Sequence record: PZ445550.1
Source of the DNA: a phage
DNA: 64,000 nucleotides
Direction: 5' to 3' (one strand)
Every line of letters starts with the position of its first letter. Within the stretch, counting starts at the first letter, position 1. This document shows, in pieces, positions 43,656 through 52,714 of the stretch. The translations under genes and the position numbers were made by a program. The notes under the pieces are model-generated. The model did no database searches, was not told the origin of the DNA, and saw only the letters and a program-made list of their open reading frames with translations.

Positions 43656-43896
43656 ACGATTCCTTGAGCAAAGAAGCAAGTTCAGCATAGACTTTATCTA
43701 ACTCAAAGCCGATGCGAAGAGACACGTTAGTTTTCCGTTGTTTAAGTAACCACTCGGATATGTTAGGGATACCAGCTAATCTATGTGGTACCACCCTACA
43801 TAGCTTTTCCGAAGTATCGTAAACAGGAACTTTACGCTCTTTTACTGGAAACTTCCTTGTTTCCCATTTTTTATTCTTCGCTGTCATTCCTAGCAC
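43654..43896 (-). CDS. Hypothetical early protein
   Basis: 80-aa ORF overlapping the 3' end of the large helicase gene. Confidence 0.35.
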   Translation of the reverse strand: MLGMTAKNKKWETRKFPVKERKVPVYDTSEKLCRVVPHRLAGIPNISEWLLKQRKTNVSLRIGFELDKVYAELASLLKES

Positions 43897-46738
43897 CTAA
43901 CTCTGCCATTGCTTCATCATGCATATGTTTCTCCTCATCGGTCATAAACTTATAAGGAATTGGCATACACTCGATTTTACAATAGGTTCTGTACCAGTCT
44001 ATAATATTCTCCGTGTTCATATCCTTACCAATACCCATCATACCAAGATACATTCTCGCATATTTTGGGTTAGCACTCTGACCTGTTTTAAGAAAGAAAT
44101 CTTTTTTCTTACCTTTCAGAGCTTCTATGAAGGGTTTGATAGTGACATTTGAACACTTCTTAATATCTTCCCAAAACATCTCGTGCATTTTATGAAAGAA
44201 TGCAGCTCGATCATTTGGTTTATCTTTGATATACTGCTCAACATGCTCTACTGTTACGTCTTTAATAGACTCAAGATGGTAGTAGCGAACAAGGAGTAGT
44301 TTAGCTTCATATGCATCCGCATGGCGTGGAGCACAGTAATCAGGGGTTGAGTGCAGGATAGCTTTAATTCGCTCTTCTGTATATTCTTTACCCGCACCTT
44401 CAATAGTTCCCCAGCTTTCACTGAAAATATCAATAGTTGCTCCCTGATCTAGCAGATAATAACGTAAAGTACTGGTATAATTCCTAGATTCAAGCTCCCT
44501 ACGACGTGCGTATAATTGTTGGGCTAATTCTAACCAACCTTCATCAATATTATACTGTTCAGAACCTGCTGAGAATCCACTAGTGGATTTATCTATAAAA
44601 TAATAGATATTCTGAGCACCACGGTCGCGCCTAATTGCTTGAAAACGCATGTTTGGTGCTTGGTTACTAGTTCTAGTAATAACGAATACGTTATCAAAAT
44701 AATTAAAGTCAACCCCACTCGTTACTGATGGACTACATAATAAACAATCAATCTGTTGATCAATTAGCTCATTAGTTGTGTAATCCAGAATACGTCTAAT
44801 ATCCACATCAGACGTAGAGTTTGAGTGGATTTCCTTAACTAACGCACCAGTATTACGACGCAGTGCCATACCTTTTTCGTTAAGTTCATCAGGCCCACAA
44901 TCAGATACTAGAATTGATTTCTCACCCATCTCTAAAGATGTTTGAAGTGCAACCCAAATACTGGATTCATCGGGAAACTCATACGCATGAGCCTTTGATA
45001 GCATTTTACGGTGATGGTTATAAAATGCTACTGGTTTATCAAAATCAATAAGAGAACCATAAGCTTCAATCGTCTCAGCACTAATATCGCCATCCGATAA
45101 TATTACAGTTTTAGCTGTCATGAGAATATCACGAAGAACCTGAATACACTCACGGCGTTGTTTAACAACTGGAGCGAACAGCAGATCATTCATTACAGCG
45201 TCGCATTCATCAATAAAAATGGTGTCTATTTGACCAATGAAACTCTTAAATTTGTGCAAAGAATGGATAGTTGTAGACATACGATCAATAGCGCCGCGCT
45301 TAAAATTAAGCATATCAACTGATTTATCATACTGTCCCGCACTAAACTTTTTGGCATTTGAGGATACAAGTGCTCTAGTATTTGTAACTGCCAAAAAATT
45401 TCCTGGAAGAACGCCAGCATCAAGCCATTTAGTTACTGCCGTAGTTTTACCCGTACCAAGACTTGCCTTAACAAATGTTATATGATTTTTTGGAGGCACA
45501 ATGTTAATCTTCAGATATGGGACTTCTGGGGGAGAATCAGTATCTAGACGTTTTAATGGTACACCTTTTAGATTTGGTGGAATCTCACGTTTGGAATTGT
45601 TCACAAACGCTTTAAGAGCTTGCTTACGACCATTATTAAAATAATCTTGAATATTACGACTGTTATCTTTTGTTGCAATATATTCGGATAAAGCAGGTTT
45701 AATCTCACGTTCTAACCATGCAAAATCAACACCATCCTCTAGTGCTCTGTGATAAAGCTTTGGTATAATACGTAGATACACCCCATCCTCAGCTTCTTCT
45801 AATTCGCTGATGGTTTCTTCTACTTTATCAGATGCGATCTTTTTACCTTTAATTTGGTCAAGTAAAGAATAGAACTCTTCCTTAAACTCCCCTCTAGTTG
45901 TTTCATAGTCAACTAGATTATTAGGCAGATTTATTTTCGAACCTTTAACATACACTAGACGTGGTTTATTCTCCGCTTTAAACGGATCAACTATACCATC
46001 ATTAAATAAAGGATCAGCAAAATAGTGAAGCTGTACAGAAGAGTAATAAGCTAAGTCGGCAATATCAAAGCCATACTTTTGTTTACTACTGTCATTGATA
46101 GATGTAAATAAGAACTTTAATTGCCCTTGTGTTACCTTAACATTAGATTCTAGTATTAAGTGCATTCGGATACCTGGTTTTAGTCCAGCCGAAGACGATG
46201 CATGAGCAATAAACCCTGCATCAAGAGGAAACATATCCTCACTAATACTATTCAACATCTTAATAATATGCCGCGCCATACCAACAAGATTAAACTTGTC
46301 ATAGCCACCAGTATCTATAATACCATCCACATCCATAGCGACTATATGGCTAGGGTTGGAAACATTAAAGTTACCTCGGATACGACGAACATTATCTTTT
46401 GGAGCTAAACATTTACCACGAATAGCTACAATATGCGGATCCCTTGTGAGACGACGCATAATAGGCAACATTTCAGCAAGATTCTGTGGGTCAAGTTCTT
46501 CAAGTACATCAAATTTGAAGGGCATGGAAGCTGGTTTACCTTCTGGATGCTCTTTAGAGAATCTCTTTGCAAAGGTATAATCTTCCGCTTTGATCTCTTT
46601 CCAGATACCTGTGGCTTTATCTCTGGAAAATCCTGCATGACCTTGTAGGATTGAGAACACAACAGTACTCCTATGTTGGTTATTCGGATATTTTTCTCTA
46701 GGACTATTCAGAAAGAATAGAACAACTATTACTACCAT
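43871..46738 (-). CDS. Large SF2-type ATPase/helicase, putative replication origin-binding protein
   Basis: Walker A SLGTGKTT, Walker B IFIDECD, helicase C motifs; N-terminal start uncertain. Confidence 0.6.
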   Translation of the reverse strand: MVVIVVLFFLNSPREKYPNNQHRSTVVFSILQGHAGFSRDKATGIWKEIKAEDYTFAKRFSKEHPEGKPASMPFKFDVLEELDPQNLAEMLPIMRRLTRDPHIVAIRGKCLAPKDNVRRIRGNFNVSNPSHIVAMDVDGIIDTGGYDKFNLVGMARHIIKMLNSISEDMFPLDAGFIAHASSSAGLKPGIRMHLILESNVKVTQGQLKFLFTSINDSSKQKYGFDIADLAYYSSVQLHYFADPLFNDGIVDPFKAENKPRLVYVKGSKINLPNNLVDYETTRGEFKEEFYSLLDQIKGKKIASDKVEETISELEEAEDGVYLRIIPKLYHRALEDGVDFAWLEREIKPALSEYIATKDNSRNIQDYFNNGRKQALKAFVNNSKREIPPNLKGVPLKRLDTDSPPEVPYLKINIVPPKNHITFVKASLGTGKTTAVTKWLDAGVLPGNFLAVTNTRALVSSNAKKFSAGQYDKSVDMLNFKRGAIDRMSTTIHSLHKFKSFIGQIDTIFIDECDAVMNDLLFAPVVKQRRECIQVLRDILMTAKTVILSDGDISAETIEAYGSLIDFDKPVAFYNHHRKMLSKAHAYEFPDESSIWVALQTSLEMGEKSILVSDCGPDELNEKGMALRRNTGALVKEIHSNSTSDVDIRRILDYTTNELIDQQIDCLLCSPSVTSGVDFNYFDNVFVITRTSNQAPNMRFQAIRRDRGAQNIYYFIDKSTSGFSAGSEQYNIDEGWLELAQQLYARRRELESRNYTSTLRYYLLDQGATIDIFSESWGTIEGAGKEYTEERIKAILHSTPDYCAPRHADAYEAKLLLVRYYHLESIKDVTVEHVEQYIKDKPNDRAAFFHKMHEMFWEDIKKCSNVTIKPFIEALKGKKKDFFLKTGQSANPKYARMYLGMMGIGKDMNTENIIDWYRTYCKIECMPIPYKFMTDEEKHMHDEAMAELGARNDSEE

Positions 46739-47158
46739 CTATACAAAACATTAATTATCATCAAGCAGTATGAATAAGTTATCATACCTCAGTGCTACAC
46801 TCTCTTAACTCTTATCCAGACCAGAACCTAGGTCATTGGCCGCTAAGCCGATTCTGATTGCCCTCACTATCCTATTGGTAGGTGGCTACTGGACGTGTCA
46901 CCATTCGCTGCTCTTTTCGTTCGCACCCCCATATAAAGCTCTGCCTATATAACGAGCTAAATATGCACGGTTTGGATTTACCTTTCCGAATTCAGGGTAT
47001 GCAGATCACTTAATTGATAATTAACTAATGTAGTATAAACACTAGTAATAGTTAAAACAACCCTTAATGGGGCAGCCTAACTGTTCCGTATCGCGGATTG
47101 TAAACAAGAAAAATTAGCAAAATCAATTTTTACTAATGTCTCTCACTTCAATATAAAT

Positions 47159-47187
47159 ATTATATCAAGATTTTGAGCATCGTGCAA
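47159..47187 (-). promoter_or_regulatory. Early promoter with about 400-nt leader
   Basis: Minus strand reads TTGCAC, 17-bp spacer, TATAAT. Confidence 0.5.
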
Positions 47188-47227
47188 CAAAAATTTTAAA
47201 GATGGTGCTATCAGTGTCTTTGAGCAC

Positions 47228-47256
47228 AGTGAAAACCGAGTCATTTTGACTCGGTA
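47228..47256 (-). terminator. Rho-independent terminator ending the Sir2 operon
   Basis: Minus-strand hairpin ACCGAGTCA-AAA-TGACTCGGT followed by TTTTCAC. Confidence 0.6.
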
Positions 47257-47278
47257 ATCAGTATTGGGCTAAGGAAAA

Positions 47279-47677
47279 TCAATTATCATTCAGACCTGGG
47301 ATGTAAATCCCAATGCGATTTAATTGATCTTTAGCTTCTTCAAGAATATCTTCGGTGTATTCCCAAATATCATCTTCTACTTGCAAAAGATAATGGGATT
47401 CTCCAGTTTCTGGGTCACGCGTAATAGCTAAACCACGTGGATGGAATACAGAGAAATTAAGGGCAACAATCAACCCCATACCTGATAATTCATTCCAGTC
47501 GGCTTCCCACCCATCCATCTCATCTTCATCTACAAAGATTCCAGTACTGGAATCTGTTATATCCATAAAGGGAAATACTACACTAACTTTCTCAGCTCCA
47601 AGCCAGCGTGCGAGCAATCCTTCAGCACGCTCCACTAAACTAGGATCGATCTGACGCCAATATACTTGTTCCATCAT
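47279..47677 (-). CDS. Hypothetical protein, paralog A
   Basis: 132 aa; shares GMGL(I/V)(V/F)ALN and C-terminal G(I/Y)(Y/Q)IPGL motifs with the adjacent ORF. Confidence 0.5.
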   Translation of the reverse strand: MMEQVYWRQIDPSLVERAEGLLARWLGAEKVSVVFPFMDITDSSTGIFVDEDEMDGWEADWNELSGMGLIVALNFSVFHPRGLAITRDPETGESHYLLQVEDDIWEYTEDILEEAKDQLNRIGIYIPGLNDN

Positions 47678-47683
47678 GCCTCC

Positions 47684-48112
47684 TTAGGCAGTTAAACCCG
47701 GAATTTGATAACCAAAACGGCGAAGTTTTTGGATACCCTCATTTACTTCTTCTGGTGAATAAGACCAACCATACTGTTCATTAACCTGAAAACCAGGAGA
47801 TTCACTAGTCTTATAGTTAATTACAATTCGATGCTTAACAGGCATAAATAGTTTATAGTTTAATGCAAAGACTAACCCCATTTCATCTAACTCTTTCCAG
47901 CCAATAATCTCCTCCACACCATCCTCTAGTTGTACTACTAGTCCCATGCATGAAGTTTCTTCTATATCATCCTTAAATGCAAAAGAAATATCATTATTTT
48001 CACACCAAACCTTTAAGGAGTTAATAGCTTCATTATACAAGTTATTAGGAAGAGTTCGCCAAAAATTGACCAGTACCGGATTAGTTTCCTTAAAAAATAC
48101 ATTATTAAACAT
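47684..48112 (-). CDS. Hypothetical protein, paralog B
   Basis: 142 aa; tandem paralog of 47279-47677. Confidence 0.5.
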   Translation of the reverse strand: MFNNVFFKETNPVLVNFWRTLPNNLYNEAINSLKVWCENNDISFAFKDDIEETSCMGLVVQLEDGVEEIIGWKELDEMGLVFALNYKLFMPVKHRIVINYKTSESPGFQVNEQYGWSYSPEEVNEGIQKLRRFGYQIPGLTA

Positions 48113-48114
48113 AC

Positions 48115-48621
48115 TTATACCTTAAATTGTTGTAATGATTTACACATCTCAAGCTCTGGACTAAACTCCAGCATATAGCGAGCAGCCATTAGATCTTGAA
48201 GATTTATACCAGTCTTACCATTGACTATAACTGTAGGATACTGATACATCATAGCGCCAGCGTCATCCAATACACACCAGTGCTTAAGTTTGTGTTTTTC
48301 TACAAACCTAAGTACAGAATTACCCCTAGATAATCCACCACCAGTAAAATCCGTTGTACCTAAAAAACGATCGATAAGACCTAATCCGGTCATAATCCGA
48401 ACGTTCTCCATCTCATTTTTAACAGAAAACCATGAAGATACCCCAACAATCATTATTGAAGAGGGACGAATAAAATCCTGAAAAGCCTTGAGAAGCGGTT
48501 TAAAAACCCAATCACCCCCGAAGAAGATCTTTTCATCGTCAGGTGCATGGTGGTGAGAGATGCTAGAATTGAGCACCCCATCAATGTCTAGAAAAATAAT
48601 CGGAGTATTACTTATTTCCAT
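48115..48621 (-). CDS. HAD-like hydrolase/phosphatase (putative)
   Basis: N-terminal IIFLDIDGVLNS matches HAD motif I (DxDG[TV]). Confidence 0.5.
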   Translation of the reverse strand: MEISNTPIIFLDIDGVLNSSISHHHAPDDEKIFFGGDWVFKPLLKAFQDFIRPSSIMIVGVSSWFSVKNEMENVRIMTGLGLIDRFLGTTDFTGGGLSRGNSVLRFVEKHKLKHWCVLDDAGAMMYQYPTVIVNGKTGINLQDLMAARYMLEFSPELEMCKSLQQFKV

Positions 48622-48823
48622 TTTTGTTCCTTTCTAAGAACTTATCATACTCAACCGTATCAGTATATATGACACCATAGTCATCAGATTTATAATCCAT
48701 TTCCCATAGTTCACAGCGATAACACCAACTACCATCCGCCCATACAAATATATCATCAGGGTGTGTATACACAGATTTAACTATGGACATATTTGTTTTC
48801 CCCCCTCTCCGGAGGATAACCAT
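48608..48823 (-). CDS. Hypothetical small protein (WCYR motif)
   Basis: Shares DIF...G.WCYR motif with 48781-48966. Confidence 0.35.
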   Translation of the reverse strand: MVILRRGGKTNMSIVKSVYTHPDDIFVWADGSWCYRCELWEMDYKSDDYGVIYTDTVEYDKFLERNKNGNK

Positions 48824-48966
48824 ATATCCTCCGTAGTATAGATAATTTTATATGTATTGCCCAATCTTTCTTTTACACTAGCAAATCTATAGGCAAACCT
48901 ATAACACCAAATACCAGATTCGGTTATAAAAATATCCCATTCATTATTTATTGCTTCCTGGCACAT
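48781..48966 (-). CDS. Hypothetical small protein (WCYR motif)
   Basis: 61-aa ORF, paralogous motif to 48608-48823. Confidence 0.35.
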   Translation of the reverse strand: MCQEAINNEWDIFITESGIWCYRFAYRFASVKERLGNTYKIIYTTEDIWLSSGEGGKQICP

Positions 48967-49762
48967 AAGGTCTATCCTCTAAATGAGCTTCCACACGAGC
49001 AATAAAATCAGGGTCACTGAAAGCATCCACCGCACCTTTACTCCAGTAAGGGACACCACGTTCTTCCAACTGGTACATCTCACTACGAGTCATACCTTGA
49101 TAGCCTGGCTCTGCCGCTAGGGCACTATCATAGTAGTTAACTACCATTAATTTGGCAGCAGTCAAATTAAGAACAGGAAATAATTCCCAATAGAAGTTAA
49201 TTACTTGGTTAGAGCAACCAACCACAATGATCATATCTTGATTGGTAATACCATCAAAAACATTGTACATTTCTGCATATGCTGGAGCATGCTCCCCAAA
49301 GAAGATTACATTAGGTTTAACCCATTTATAATCATCTGGGTCAATAGAATTGTACCCTACATTAATAATCCGTTTATTGCTACTATTGTAGCTATCAGCT
49401 ACAACAACCTCTTTTAAATATCCATGAATGTGCAGAATGTCACTATGTGGAACGCCAGCACGCTCAATAAGGTCATCAACGTTGGTAGTAAGGTTTACTA
49501 CTTGATTTGGATACCGTTTATACCACTCACCAATACGAAGGTGGGCAAGATTAGGTTCAACAGTTTCTAGTTCTTCACGGCGTTTATTATAGAACTCATG
49601 AGTTTTGTGGTAGCAATCTCCTAAAAAGGTATGAATATTGCATACTTCTTCAATATTAAACTCGTCCCACATCGCTTTACCAGTACTGGAGTCAGTACGA
49701 AATGCGCGTACGCCGCTTTCAACACTTAAACCTGCACCACTAATAATAATTAGCCTACGCAT
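48944..49762 (-). CDS. Sir2-family protein (NAD-dependent deacylase / ADP-ribosyltransferase-like)
   Basis: GAGLSVESGVRAFR (Sir2 GAGIS...SGIP.FR), TTNVDDL (TQNID-like), HIHG catalytic His; no CxxC zinc ribbon. Confidence 0.6.
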   Translation of the reverse strand: MRRLIIISGAGLSVESGVRAFRTDSSTGKAMWDEFNIEEVCNIHTFLGDCYHKTHEFYNKRREELETVEPNLAHLRIGEWYKRYPNQVVNLTTNVDDLIERAGVPHSDILHIHGYLKEVVVADSYNSSNKRIINVGYNSIDPDDYKWVKPNVIFFGEHAPAYAEMYNVFDGITNQDMIIVVGCSNQVINFYWELFPVLNLTAAKLMVVNYYDSALAAEPGYQGMTRSEMYQLEERGVPYWSKGAVDAFSDPDFIARVEAHLEDRPYVPGSNK

Positions 49763-49956
49763 TATACTACCCCCCGCTTAAATCCCTCGATAATATCTCG
49801 GAGTAAAATTGCTTCTTCAGGACGTACCCTTTCTTGTTTAATAAGCATGTCTAATCCAGCAATACAAGCAGATACTCCAGCATTATATCCAGAGTTCCAT
49901 TGCTCTATAAGCATATTTTCTAGATTACTTTTTAGATTCTGATTCAAGAAGTCCAT
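49762..49956 (-). CDS. Hypothetical small protein
   Basis: 64-aa ORF translationally coupled to neighbours. Confidence 0.35.
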   Translation of the reverse strand: MDFLNQNLKSNLENMLIEQWNSGYNAGVSACIAGLDMLIKQERVRPEEAILLRDIIEGFKRGVV

Positions 49957-50149
49957 ACAGCTTATCCTCTAATTCCATAATACGATTTTCATAAGAAGCA
50001 CGCAACTTTTCAATTGCTAACGCGCGAATAGTAACTTCATTAGCATTAATAGCTAGCTGGGCCAGGTCTTCCGTTTCCATACGTCCATTGTAAATTAAGC
50101 GATATTTAAGATGTTTTACATTTTTAGCCATTATTAAACTCCACTGCAA
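49925..50149 (-). CDS. Hypothetical small protein
   Basis: 74-aa ORF. Confidence 0.35.
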   Translation of the reverse strand: MQWSLIMAKNVKHLKYRLIYNGRMETEDLAQLAINANEVTIRALAIEKLRASYENRIMELEDKLYGLLESESKK

Positions 50150-50839: not shown

Positions 50840-52714
50840 TTATTTAGCTCGAATATCCTGATGTTTCACCCTACCCATAACCTCATGCTGTTTACCTGGG
50901 TTAAATGGACGAGCACCTGGATTTCCAAGGTATCCACAAACTCGGCGAGTTACTTCAAGAGTTTCAGGATCATGATTGCCACAAATCGGACACTTAAATC
51001 CATCTTCAGAAGCTATTGTCTCGCCTAAGAATCCACATTTACCGCAAGAATCCACAGGGGTATTAATACCAAAATAGTGAACTTTACTTGCAGCATAATT
51101 AATAACCCATTCTAAGGCATCAGGAAATCGTTTCATGTCTGGTAATTCCACGTAGGAAATACACCCACCAGATGCAATTGGAGTAAAATTAGACTCATAG
51201 TCAAACTTCACATTAGGAGCAACTTTACGCTCTACATCAAGATGATGAGAGTTAGTATAATATCCTTTGGCTAAAATATCTTCATGCTCCGGGAAATATT
51301 GACGATCTAGACGACAGAAACGGTCACACAAAGATTCAGATGGTGTAGCATACAGACTATAACCTAACTGGGTTTCTTCTTTCCTCTGATCAACCCTATC
51401 CCGCATATACTGCAATACACGTTGGACAAACTTGATACATGTTTCAGACATCGTATCAACATCTTTACCAAACATGAACTGTAACATTTCATGACAGCCA
51501 ATATACCCTAGAGATACAGAAGCACGATTGTAGAAATGATCGAATACATATTCATCAGGCTCTAAACGTAATCCGAAGGCTCCTGACATATAGAGAATAG
51601 GCGCGGCTTTGGCTTGAATGTATTTTAAGCGATCAACTCTCCACTCCAATGCTTTTAATGCAGTATCCACACGCAGCTCAAGTAGATCAAAGAATAGGTC
51701 GATATTTCCTTCAGCTTCGATAGCAATTCTAGGTAAGTTTACAGAAACAACACCTAAGTTATTACGACCGGCAGTTTCACCATCTTCTGTAGCAGCTAGG
51801 AATGAGCGACATCCCATAGAAACTTTGTAGTCTCCAGTAACCTCTACAACTTTATCATAGCTAATATAATCAGGGTACATACGTTCAGCAGTACACTTCA
51901 TAGCTAACTTCTTGATGTCATAATTAACATCTCCAGGTTTCATATTAACACCGTCTCTAAGTACAAATACTAGCTTAGGAAATATTGCAGTACGTTTATT
52001 AATACCCAAGCCATCCATACGTACTTTCAGTATTGCTTTCTGTACTAAACGTGCTTCCCAAGAAGTTCCCAGACCAAAACCAAAAGTAATAAATGGACTC
52101 TGACCATTAGAGTTAAACATCGTATTGATTTCATACTCTAGACCCTGACAAGCATCATAGACTTCTTTTTCAGTCATTTCAGTAGCCATTACAGATGCTT
52201 TGGCTTCATCCTTAGTCCAACGCTTTGCAAACGCATGGTTTTTGTCATAGGATTTACGTACATAAGGAGCAAGAACTTCATCAAGACGATCTACAGAAGT
52301 ACCACCGTACTGATAGGAACTAACCTGAGTAATAATCTGGGCTGTAATAGCTGCTGCAGTAGTAATAGAGTTTGGTGTACTAATTTCAGCATTACCAACT
52401 TTCATACCATTCTTTAGCATATCTTCCAGAGCTACTAGACAACAGTTAGTCATACCTAAAGCAGCGTAATCAGCATCATGAAAGTGAATATCACCAATCA
52501 TATGAGCATTTCGAATCTGAATTGGCATTTCTTCTAAAATCAGATATTTACTCAATTCCCCTGCAAGCATATCCCTTTGTGTAGGGAAACGCTCAGAGGG
52601 TTTATTCGCATTATTAAAGAGAAGCTCTTCGTCAGCAGAACCCTCAATAATTTCTTTGCAGTTTCTAATCAAGGACTGCATTTCCTTGTATTTTAGTTCA
52701 TCATTGCGATTCAT
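50840..52714 (-). CDS. nrdD: Anaerobic ribonucleoside-triphosphate reductase (class III)
   Basis: Glycyl-radical motif TRRVCGYLG near the C-terminus; Cys cluster CGKCG...CPICG. Confidence 0.9.
   Translation of the reverse strand: MNRNDELKYKEMQSLIRNCKEIIEGSADEELLFNNANKPSERFPTQRDMLAGELSKYLILEEMPIQIRNAHMIGDIHFHDADYAALGMTNCCLVALEDMLKNGMKVGNAEISTPNSITTAAAITAQIITQVSSYQYGGTSVDRLDEVLAPYVRKSYDKNHAFAKRWTKDEAKASVMATEMTEKEVYDACQGLEYEINTMFNSNGQSPFITFGFGLGTSWEARLVQKAILKVRMDGLGINKRTAIFPKLVFVLRDGVNMKPGDVNYDIKKLAMKCTAERMYPDYISYDKVVEVTGDYKVSMGCRSFLAATEDGETAGRNNLGVVSVNLPRIAIEAEGNIDLFFDLLELRVDTALKALEWRVDRLKYIQAKAAPILYMSGAFGLRLEPDEYVFDHFYNRASVSLGYIGCHEMLQFMFGKDVDTMSETCIKFVQRVLQYMRDRVDQRKEETQLGYSLYATPSESLCDRFCRLDRQYFPEHEDILAKGYYTNSHHLDVERKVAPNVKFDYESNFTPIASGGCISYVELPDMKRFPDALEWVINYAASKVHYFGINTPVDSCGKCGFLGETIASEDGFKCPICGNHDPETLEVTRRVCGYLGNPGARPFNPGKQHEVMGRVKHQDIRAK

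What the first reader, a model, noticed from the sequence alone, without database searches (positions are those of the whole stretch)
47279..48112. Adjacent paralogous genes sharing GMGL and C-terminal IPGL motifs
The 132-aa and 142-aa proteins share ...W.EL.(E/G)MGL(I/V)(V/F)ALN(F/Y)..F.P... and end in G(I/Y)(Y/Q)IPGL. This is a tandem duplication with divergence inside the Sir2 operon, consistent with a diversifying specificity or antagonist function.
Basis: seen in the sequence. Interest (0 to 1): 0.45.

Follow-up and report, generated by a model that had tools for sequence, protein, structure and literature searches.

The report
Ancient paralogous DUF7415 genes, T5-like phage
The two adjacent genes are real, ancient duplicates of a small acidic phage protein of unknown function (Pfam DUF7415, the T5.106/T5.107 genes of a T5-like phage); both are kept under purifying selection next to the phage sirtuin gene, so this is a confirmed but ordinary finding rather than a fast-diversifying pair.

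Summary
The window is 100% identical to Escherichia phage KookSpook, a T5-like phage. The two ORFs are the orthologues of T5.107 (gene A, 47279-47677) and T5.106 (gene B, 47684-48112).

**Observation: confirmed.**
- BLASTP gives 33% identity over 126 aa, E=2e-15.
- The Smith-Waterman score has z=22.6 against 2000 shuffles.
- Both quoted motifs are present.

**What the proteins are.**
- Both belong to Pfam DUF7415 and PHROG 2502.
- Each half of each protein passes the Pfam threshold on its own.
- AlphaFold models (pLDDT 91 and 88) share one topology, which has no match among solved structures.
- The pair is very acidic (pI 4.05 and 4.63).
- A keeps the canonical DUF7415 motif; B is degenerate.

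**Age of the duplication.** It is old. B-type and A-type lineages are separate (94% bootstrap). The B-then-A pair recurs next to Sir2, upstream of the origin-binding-protein gene, in Sugarland and several metagenomic T5-like lineages.

**Selection.** dN/dS is 0.18 for A and 0.08 for B, and no 15-codon window exceeds 0.64. Selection is purifying, not diversifying.

**Function.** Untested. My best guess is a non-enzymatic protein-binding accessory factor of the early DNA-metabolism programme. In a published CRISPRi screen T5.107 is marginally "Fit".

The parts
47279..47677 (-). Gene A: orthologue of T5.107. 132-aa ORF, probably 131 aa from the ATG at 47674. Two-repeat DUF7415 protein, pI 4.05, net charge -20.
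   Evidence: ORF. Pfam DUF7415 E=1.2e-26 and PHROG 2502 E=5e-54. 66% identical to T5.107 and 87% to the Epseptimavirus orthologues. AF2 pLDDT 91. pI.
47684..48112 (-). Gene B: orthologue of T5.106. 142 aa, two-repeat DUF7415 protein, pI 4.63, net charge -8. Residues 1-11 are predicted disordered.
   Evidence: ORF. Pfam DUF7415 E=8.4e-31 and PHROG 2502 E=1.9e-59. 86% identical to T5.106. AF2 pLDDT 88.
47348..47500 (-). A, C-terminal canonical DUF7415 domain (residues 60-110): DWNELSGMGLIVALNFSVFHPRGLAITRDPETGES...WEY.
   Evidence: 62.4 bits against a profile built only from single-domain family members. 53.9 bits against Pfam when scanned alone. It is the most constrained part of the gene, pN/pS 0.08.
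47528..47668 (-). A, N-terminal divergent DUF7415-like repeat (residues 4-50). Its second half and the linker (about residues 27-60) are the most variable part of the gene and carry indels.
   Evidence: 43.2 bits against Pfam when scanned alone, against a cut-off of 27. Same strand-helix-strand-strand pattern as the C-terminal half. Only weak profile-profile support, hhalign E=0.019. pN/pS 0.4-0.64.
47753..47905 (-). B, C-terminal degenerate DUF7415 domain (residues 70-120). It keeps W, GL, N, P, S and W.Y but has lost the N, H, GLA, R and G of the canonical motif.
   Evidence: 52.2 bits against Pfam but only 12.9 bits against the single-domain profile.
47927..48070 (-). B, N-terminal DUF7415-like repeat (residues 15-62).
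   Evidence: 58.3 bits against Pfam when scanned alone. No direct BLASTP similarity to B's own C-terminal half.
47291..47311 (-). A, C-terminal GIYIPGL motif (residues 123-129). P, G and L are invariant in the T5-like two-repeat alignments but vary in more distant two-repeat proteins.
   Evidence: Regex match. Invariant columns P127 G128 L129. Single-domain family members lack this tail.
47693..47713 (-). B, C-terminal GYQIPGL motif (residues 134-140).
   Evidence: Regex match. Invariant columns P138 G139 L140.
47679..47685 (-). Shine-Dalgarno AAGGAGG for gene A. It overlaps the TAA stop of gene B (47684-47686), which suggests translational coupling of B and A.
   Evidence: Read directly from the sequence.
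47231..47255 (-). Rho-independent terminator-like hairpin (9-bp stem ACCGAGUCA/UGACUCGGU, then UUUU) closing the operon after gene A.
   Evidence: RNA fold -19.9 kcal/mol, z=-4.67, 0 of 200 shuffles as stable. T5 has a terminator annotated at the equivalent place. The simple consensus scan missed it.
48115..48621 (-). Upstream operon neighbour: HAD_SAK_2 phosphatase-like protein, the T5.105 orthologue. Its stop lies 2 nt before the start of B.
   Evidence: Pfam HAD_SAK_2 E=2.2e-20.
48944..49762 (-). Operon neighbour: Sir2-family protein, the T5.102 orthologue. In every T5-like lineage examined where the contig reached far enough, it lies in the same NrdD-to-OBP gene string as the DUF7415 gene(s).
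   Evidence: Pfam SIR2 E=1.2e-24. Contexts.

Best explanation
**Shown.**
- Genes A and B are the T5.107 and T5.106 orthologues of a T5-like phage.
- They are ancient tandem paralogues of the uncharacterised DUF7415 family.
- The duplication predates the split of Sugarlandvirus and Markadamsvirinae, and both copies are kept under purifying selection.
- A retains the canonical DUF7415 motif in its C-terminal domain. B is a degenerate copy.
- The two genes are transcribed together and probably translationally coupled, at the end of the early NrdD-Sir2-(HAD) operon, just upstream of the origin-binding-protein gene.

**Likely.** Each protein is an intramolecular tandem of two strand-helix-strand-strand DUF7415-like units followed by a C-terminal helix and a conserved (I/V)PGL tail.

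**Inferred.**
- They are non-enzymatic, strongly acidic protein-binding modules.
- The single-domain relatives probably act as dimers. The T5-type proteins would then be fused pseudo-dimers.
- A and B work side by side, possibly as a heteromer, as accessory factors of the phage early DNA-replication and nucleotide-metabolism programme.
- They would act by docking onto a phage or host protein, not by binding nucleic acid or catalysing a reaction.
For: **Identity and paralogy**
- The window is 100% identical to phage KookSpook and 85% identical to T5. T5 annotation.
- Paralogy.
- Family membership.

**Structure**
- Each half alone passes the Pfam cut-off.
- The two models have the same predicted topology, at pLDDT 91 and 88.

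**Age and selection**
- Old duplication: the B-type clade has 94% bootstrap support, and A+B never group as sisters.
- B-then-A pairs occur in Sugarland and in loci L107 and L113.
- Purifying selection, dN/dS 0.18 and 0.08.
- A is canonical at 62.4 bits and B degenerate at 12.9 bits.

**Charge**
- pI is 4.05 and 4.63, and 98% of 116 single-domain members have pI below 6.

**Link to replication and nucleotide metabolism**
- The genes are always between NrdD/Sir2 and the origin-binding helicase in T5-like phages.
- 35 of 80 IMG/VR loci with a single-domain member have a P2 gpA-type replication initiator within three genes on the same strand. In 27 of them it is immediately adjacent.
- In Jiaodavirus a single-domain member sits between nrdD and nrdG.
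- Domain fusions include thymidylate kinase and dATP/dGTP pyrophosphohydrolase.

**Fitness**
- T5.107 is one of 17 'Fit' genes in the CRISPRi-ART screen of T5. The score is -2.90 with p=0.0215, which is marginal. T5.106 is not Fit (PMC11879866 supplement).
Against: - No experiment and no structural analogue ties the family to any activity.
- The neighbourhood evidence inside Demerecviridae may simply reflect inherited synteny.
- Fusion partners are heterogeneous: ASCH/DUF3850, Cox, DUF551, PGDYG and a ClpX zinc finger also occur. The nucleotide-metabolism link is therefore not exclusive.
- Homology of the N-terminal halves to the canonical domain rests on the Pfam model and on predicted topology. 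BLASTP of the halves finds nothing. A profile of single-domain members does not detect the N-terminal halves. hhalign gives only E=0.019.
- The CRISPRi signal for T5.107 is weak. In the same screen the origin-binding protein scores 'Not Fit', so the screen has low sensitivity.
- Heteromer formation and dimerisation were not tested.
Confidence: 0.45

Rival explanations
1. The pair is a dedicated partner of the phage sirtuin: a substrate, a regulator or antagonist, or a targeting subunit of the Sir2 protein encoded in the same operon.
For: - Two-repeat DUF7415 genes sit in the same operon as Sir2 in every T5-like lineage examined where the contig extends far enough. These are T5-like phages, Sugarland, DU_PP_V and metagenomic loci L103, L105, L107, L108, L110, L111, L112 and L113.
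- The adjacency survives rearrangement. In L110 the pair lies upstream of Sir2, and in L105 the DUF7415 gene overlaps the Sir2 stop. The HAD gene, by contrast, moves or is absent.
Against: - All these phages belong to one viral lineage, so descent alone can explain the linkage.
- Single-domain relatives occur without any Sir2: next to P2 gpA, between nrdD and nrdG, and after rnlA.
- In the CRISPRi-ART screen Sir2 (T5.102) is Not Fit while T5.107 is marginally Fit, which argues against a strictly shared function.
- No interaction was tested.
Confidence: 0.2
2. They are anti-defence proteins: small, acidic, early-expressed inhibitors, for example DNA mimics, that block host immune or nuclease proteins. 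In this view duplication supplies two specificities.
For: - Very acidic: pI 4.05 with net charge -20, and pI 4.63.
- Small, early-operon genes present as tandem paralogues.
- A has a variable acidic loop with indels, pN/pS up to 0.64.
- In P2-like prophages the family sits at the end of the early operon next to variable cargo.
Against: - The genes are core-like, present in about 450 T5-like records as a two-copy pair.
- They are under purifying selection like their housekeeping neighbours.
- The domain is fused to enzymes.
- T5.107 is marginally Fit on a laboratory E. coli host. The screen's authors note that anti-defence genes irrelevant to the host do not score as Fit.
Confidence: 0.15
3. 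They are KH-like or otherwise nucleic-acid-binding proteins acting in RNA repair or processing together with the HAD_SAK_2 phosphatase.
For: - The C-terminal half has a strand-helix-helix-strand-strand-helix order like a type I KH domain.
- Neighbours or fusions include HAD_SAK_2, RnlA and ASCH.
Against: - There is no GXXG loop.
- The proteins are strongly acidic, which does not suit RNA or DNA binding.
- The HAD linkage is not kept. HAD is absent in Sugarland, DU_PP_V, L105 and L110, and the HAD neighbours in Morganella phage MP1 are not DUF7415.
Confidence: 0.05

Closest known systems
Phage T5 genes T5.106 and T5.107 (AAS77152/AAS77153; YP_006934/YP_006935)
   Same: - Orthologues with the same order, size and operon position: after T5.105 (HAD) and before the terminator and the origin-binding-protein gene.
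- B is 86% identical to T5.106 and A is 66% identical to T5.107.
   Different: - The window's A copy is of the Epseptimavirus type (87% to GreteKellenberger and 85% to bastian), while its B copy is of the Tequintavirus type. The pair is therefore a recombinant mosaic with a junction near 47680.
- The T5 genes themselves have no assigned function.
Pfam DUF7415 (PF24187) / PHROG 2502 (plus PHROGs 3954, 33705, 1812)
   Same: Both proteins, and each half of each protein, score above the Pfam gathering cut-off. Both are near full-length matches to PHROG 2502.
   Different: - Most family members are single-domain proteins of 60-110 aa with the motif DWNxLSxxGLIxRINxEILHPxGLAxxRxPxTGxS...WEY.
- The T5-type proteins carry an extra divergent N-terminal repeat, a C-terminal helix and an (I/V)PGL tail.
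- B has lost much of the canonical motif.
DUF7415-containing ORF immediately downstream of replication gene A in P2-like phages (for example Peduovirus P2_2H4 VUD37958)
   Same: It carries the same ~50-aa domain, is early-expressed, and is adjacent to a replication-initiator gene.
   Different: - It has a single canonical domain at the C-terminus of a 151-aa protein.
- The neighbouring initiator is an HUH rolling-circle protein (gpA), not the herpes-type origin-binding helicase of T5.
- There is no Sir2 nearby.
Sirtuin operons that encode their own small acidic substrate (SirTM / GcvH-L / macrodomain operons; recalled from the literature, not tested here)
   Same: A sirtuin gene is co-transcribed with small acidic proteins of no evident enzymatic function.
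   Different: - No macrodomain or lipoate-ligase gene is in the operon.
- DUF7415 has no detectable similarity to the lipoyl-carrier fold or any other solved fold.
- This is an analogy only.

Membership tests
Pfam DUF7415 (PF24187) | Whole-protein HMM score above the gathering cut-off (27 bits) | tested here: met
   A scores 93.1 bits and B 106.4 bits. The halves scanned alone score 43.2, 53.9, 58.3 and 52.2 bits.
Pfam DUF7415 (PF24187) | Canonical motif of the single-domain members (W-N...G-L...N...H-P-x-G-L-A..R...G-x-S...W-x-Y) | tested here: met
   - The C-terminal domain of A has all of these residues and scores 62.4 bits against a profile of single-domain members.
- The C-terminal domain of B keeps only part of the motif (12.9 bits).
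- The N-terminal halves are not detected by this profile.
PHROG 2502 | Near full-length profile match | tested here: met
   A: E=5.2e-54 over residues 2-131. B: E=1.9e-59 over residues 11-142.
T5.106/T5.107 orthologous pair of Demerecviridae | Reciprocal best similarity, plus conserved position between Sir2/HAD and the origin-binding-protein gene | tested here: met
   The same arrangement is seen in 10 other T5-like phages.
Internal tandem repeat (two homologous DUF7415 units per protein) | Significant similarity between the N-terminal and C-terminal halves | tested here: inconclusive
   - For: the Pfam model matches both halves in the same register, and the predicted topology repeats.
- Against: BLASTP of the halves gives E=10, the single-domain profile misses the N-terminal halves, and hhalign gives E=0.019 with probability 2.5%.
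Type I KH domain | Strand-helix-helix-strand-strand-helix fold with a GXXG loop and significant structural similarity | tested here: not met
Known anti-defence or DNA-mimic proteins (Ocr, Acr and similar) | Structural or sequence similarity to a characterised inhibitor | tested here: not met
Genes under diversifying selection | dN/dS above 1, gene-wide or in a region | tested here: not met
   Median dN/dS is 0.18 for A and 0.08 for B. The maximum 15-codon window is 0.64. Site-level codon models were not run.

The most novel reading that the evidence does not exclude
The two-repeat DUF7415 pair is the dedicated partner of the T5-family phage sirtuin. It would be either the substrate that Sir2 modifies, or a canonical-plus-degenerate heterodimer that directs or restrains Sir2 activity during host takeover. 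That would define a previously unrecognised phage sirtuin module built on a fold with no solved analogue.
Probability: 0.15. Interest if true: 0.6.

Novelty: new member of a known kind. Interest (0 to 1): 0.3.

Why it matters
Taken alone the finding is ordinary. It is a conserved pair of hypothetical genes in a phage whose sequence is already in GenBank, and both genes are already grouped in Pfam DUF7415, PHROG 2502 and VOG3964.

It has some value as a lead, for four reasons:
- DUF7415 is a widespread phage domain, with 155 clusters at 50% identity and over 500 at 90%. No paper in the searched library mentions it.
- Its predicted fold has no solved analogue.
- It sits next to replication initiators of two unrelated types, and in every T5-like lineage examined it lies in the same gene string as the phage sirtuin.
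- The T5 orthologue of gene A is one of the few genes of unknown function flagged as contributing to fitness in a genome-wide T5 knock-down screen.

A canonical-plus-degenerate paralogue pair that is retained for a long time is also a reasonable candidate for an obligate heteromer.

Tried and rejected
**Searches that found nothing**
- The PDB sequence search with the family profile gave no hit at E<=1.
- The afdb50 library was unavailable.
- NCBIfam had no model for A or B.
- Literature searches for DUF7415, T5.106/T5.107 locus tags, accession numbers and T5+Sir2+early genes gave nothing relevant.
- The bNACHT paper concerns T5 orf008 and orf015 only. The HIDEN-SEQ preprint has no T5-like essentiality map.

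**Technical failures**
- The search for related loci with the 140-sequence alignment failed because it had no conserved stretch. I repeated it with a 20-sequence domain alignment.
- One tree script timed out.
- One bootstrap run produced NaN distances and was discarded. It was redone with Poisson distances.

**Ideas tested and rejected**
- A conserved HAD_SAK_2-DUF7415 module across phage families. The HAD neighbours in Morganella phage MP1, and the genes after rnlA in Aeromonas phage phiAS5, are not DUF7415. HAD is also missing or relocated in several T5-like lineages.
- That the 83-90-aa genes at the 'B position' in single-copy lineages are degenerate DUF7415 remnants. They do not match, and they look like membrane proteins.
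- The source names 'tail tube protein' and 'exonuclease' given to some homologues. I treated these as annotation errors, since nothing supports them.

Full report
**Source and identity.** The 3-kb stretch around the finding is 100% identical to Escherichia phage KookSpook (PP925842.1). It is about 85% identical to phage T5, and roughly 450 T5-like phage records match it. The two ORFs are 47279-47677 (gene A here) and 47684-48112 (gene B), both on the minus strand. They correspond to T5.107 and T5.106, annotated as conserved hypothetical proteins. GenBank starts A at its second ATG (47674, 131 aa). This fits the MEQV start of all homologues. It also fits the AAGGAGG Shine-Dalgarno at 47679-47685, which overlaps the TAA stop of B (sequence).

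**Observation.**
- BLASTP of the two products gives 33% identity over 126 residues, E=2e-15.
- The local alignment score is 22.6 standard deviations above 2000 shuffles.

**Family.**
- Both proteins hit Pfam DUF7415 (E=1e-26 and 8e-31) and PHROG 2502 (E=5e-54 and 2e-59). Neither family has an assigned function.
- An exhaustive profile search of 1.84 billion cluster representatives found only 155 clusters at E<=1e-3.
- Their consensus is IDWNxLSxxGLIxRINxEILHPLGLAxxRxPxTGxSxGxLVxxDGxWEY.
- A profile search of the 5.8-billion-protein collection found 526 members. None has a functional name.
- No paper in the searched library mentions DUF7415.

**Architecture and structure.** Scanned alone, each half of each protein exceeds the Pfam cut-off of 27 bits, at 43, 54, 58 and 52 bits. 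AlphaFold2 models are confident, with pLDDT 91.2 for A and 88.2 for B. They share one topology: strand-helix-strand-strand, then strand-helix(-helix)-strand-strand, then a C-terminal helix. So each protein looks like a tandem of two DUF7415-like units.

That internal homology is not independently proven:
- BLASTP of the halves finds nothing.
- A profile of single-domain members does not detect the N-terminal halves.
- hhalign gives only E=0.019.

Against that same single-domain profile, the C-terminal domain of A is fully canonical (62.4 bits). The C-terminal domain of B is degenerate (12.9 bits), having lost the N, H, GLA, R and G of the motif.

The proteins are strongly acidic. A has pI 4.05 and net charge -20; B has pI 4.63. 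So is the family: 98% of 116 single-domain members have pI below 6.

**Operon.** From the gap after nrdD (50840-52714) down to gene A, ten minus-strand ORFs follow one another with overlaps or gaps of a few bases. They include:
- Sir2 (48944-49762);
- two small paralogues of PHROG 5116;
- a HAD_SAK_2 phosphatase-like protein (48115-48621).

T5 has a promoter annotated before T5.100 and a terminator after T5.107. Here a 9-bp GC-rich hairpin followed by UUUU lies at 47231-47255, at -19.9 kcal/mol and z=-4.67. 'Inside the Sir2 operon' is therefore a fair description.

**Age of the duplication.** Every Markadamsvirinae genome sampled has both genes in the order B then A. Klebsiella phage Sugarland also has two adjacent two-repeat DUF7415 genes after Sir2. 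The upstream one is closest to B and the downstream one to A.

In a neighbour-joining tree with 100 bootstraps:
- the B-type clade (T5-like B, Sugarland gp118 and three metagenomic representatives) has 94% support;
- T5-type A and B are never sisters;
- the Sugarland pair is never a sister pair.

Metagenomic T5-like contigs show the following:

| Arrangement | Loci |
|---|---|
| B-type then A-type pair after Sir2 | L107, L113 |
| Two adjacent two-repeat DUF7415 genes after Sir2, not typed (the upstream one lacks a Pfam hit) | L111, L112 |
| Pair upstream of Sir2 | L110 |
| Single copy | DU_PP_V, L103, L105, L108, L109 |

Some of the single copies (those in L103 and L105) score about equally as A-type and B-type. 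The small genes beside some single copies are not degenerate DUF7415 remnants. The duplication is therefore old, and both copies have been retained in several lineages.

**Selection.** Pairwise Nei-Gojobori dN/dS over 11 T5-like phages gives these medians:

| Gene | Median dN/dS |
|---|---|
| A | 0.18 |
| B | 0.08 |
| HAD | 0.06 |
| Sir2 | 0.14 |

No 15-codon window exceeds 0.64. The least constrained region is the N-terminal hairpin and linker of A (residues ~27-60), which also carries indels. The helix bearing the shared motif is the most constrained region in both genes, at 0.05-0.08. This does not support diversifying selection at this resolution. Site models were not run.

**Context of the wider family.**
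- In 35 of 80 IMG/VR loci with a single-domain member, a P2 gpA-type replication initiator lies within three genes on the same strand. In 27 of them it is immediately adjacent.
- In Peduovirus P2_2H4 the DUF7415 ORF overlaps the stop of gene A.
- In Jiaodavirus (T4-like Klebsiella phages) a 77-aa member sits between nrdD and nrdG.
- In an Aeromonas T4-like phage a member follows rnlA.
- Fusion partners among 140 representatives are dATP/dGTP pyrophosphohydrolase (2), DUF3850/ASCH (2), Cox, thymidylate kinase, PGDYG, DUF551 and a ClpX-type zinc finger.
- The two-repeat form was found only in T5-like contexts, always between NrdD/Sir2 and the herpes-type origin-binding helicase.

**Experimental evidence in the literature.** The CRISPRi-ART transcriptome-wide knock-down screen of T5 (Nat Microbiol 2025, PMC11879866, supplementary files) lists T5.107 among 17 'Fit' genes and calls it 'of entirely unknown function'.
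- The T5.107 score is -2.90 with p=0.0215, just above the background of about -3 to -4.
- T5.106 (-3.28, p=0.17), Sir2, HAD and even the origin-binding protein are 'Not Fit'.
- I read this as weak evidence that A contributes to growth on a laboratory host.

**Interpretation.** The descriptive part is solid. These are ancient tandem paralogues of an uncharacterised phage domain family, co-transcribed and constrained.

For mechanism, my best-supported guess (confidence about 0.45 for the whole statement) is that they are non-catalytic, acidic protein-binding modules. They would act as accessory factors of the early replication and nucleotide-metabolism programme, with the canonical A and degenerate B possibly forming a heteromer. 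The arguments are:
- the lack of any enzyme-like fold;
- the acidity, which argues against nucleic-acid binding;
- the modular fusions to enzymes;
- the adjacency to two unrelated kinds of replication initiator;
- core-like conservation.

Rival explanations:
- a dedicated sirtuin partner (0.2), supported by the invariable Sir2 linkage in T5-like phages even after gene-order changes, but weakened by Sir2-free contexts elsewhere;
- anti-defence inhibitors (0.15);
- KH-like nucleic-acid binders (0.05).

**Verdict.** The tandem duplication in the Sir2 operon is real, but it is not recent and not diversifying. It is a member of a known but uncharacterised family. Interest is low to moderate.

Noticed in passing
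window 47000-50000; junction near 47680: The pair is a recombinant mosaic. Gene A and the downstream intergenic region are closest to Epseptimavirus phages (87% aa to GreteKellenberger; 90-99% nt). Gene B, HAD and Sir2 are closest to Tequintavirus phages (86% aa to T5.106). The switch falls at about the B/A boundary.
   Followed up: partly
window 48608-48823 and 48781-48966 (minus strand): There is a second tandem paralogue pair in the same operon. Two small ORFs (71 and 61 aa as listed) both match PHROG 5116 (E=1.5e-29 and 1.4e-20). They are the orthologues of T5.104 and T5.103 and have no known function.
   Followed up: no
window 48115-48621 (minus strand): This gene is a HAD_SAK_2 phosphatase-like protein (Pfam E=2.2e-20). 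GenBank and RefSeq records label it 'Sir2 NAD-dependent deacetylase', apparently because of the label of PHROG 18062. It has no Sir2 domain.
   Followed up: partly
homologues of both genes in public records: Some records name orthologues of A 'tail tube protein', and orthologues of A or B 'exonuclease' or 'Phage exonuclease (ACLAME 70)'. Nothing in sequence, structure or context supports these names.
   Followed up: partly
window 48944-49762 (minus strand): Read by eye, the phage Sir2 keeps the GAGxS...FR NAD motif, TxNxDxL and the catalytic HG histidine. It has no CxxC pairs for the usual zinc module. It scores far below NCBIfam CobB cut-offs (100 bits against 243). It may be an atypical sirtuin.
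   Followed up: no
L016-L019 versus L001, L011-L015 (Sir2 orthologues): Sir2 itself comes in two strongly divergent types among Markadamsvirinae. The window's Sir2 is 88-94% identical to the Tequintavirus type but only about 50% identical to the type in bastian, GreteKellenberger and rutana. AKM_ECS carries the Tequintavirus-like type, at 83%.
   Followed up: no
window 46739-47230: A 0.5-kb intergenic region lies between the terminator after gene A and the origin-binding-protein gene (43871-46738). It is AT-rich and nearly identical (94-99%) across T5-like phages. T5 has an early promoter annotated at the equivalent place, and KookSpook has two tiny annotated ORFs there.
   Followed up: no
L004 (Klebsiella phage KEN25_2) 3986-4219: In Jiaodavirus phages a 77-aa single-domain DUF7415 gene is wedged between nrdD and nrdG and overlaps both. 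This arrangement recurs in many Klebsiella T4-like phage records.
   Followed up: partly
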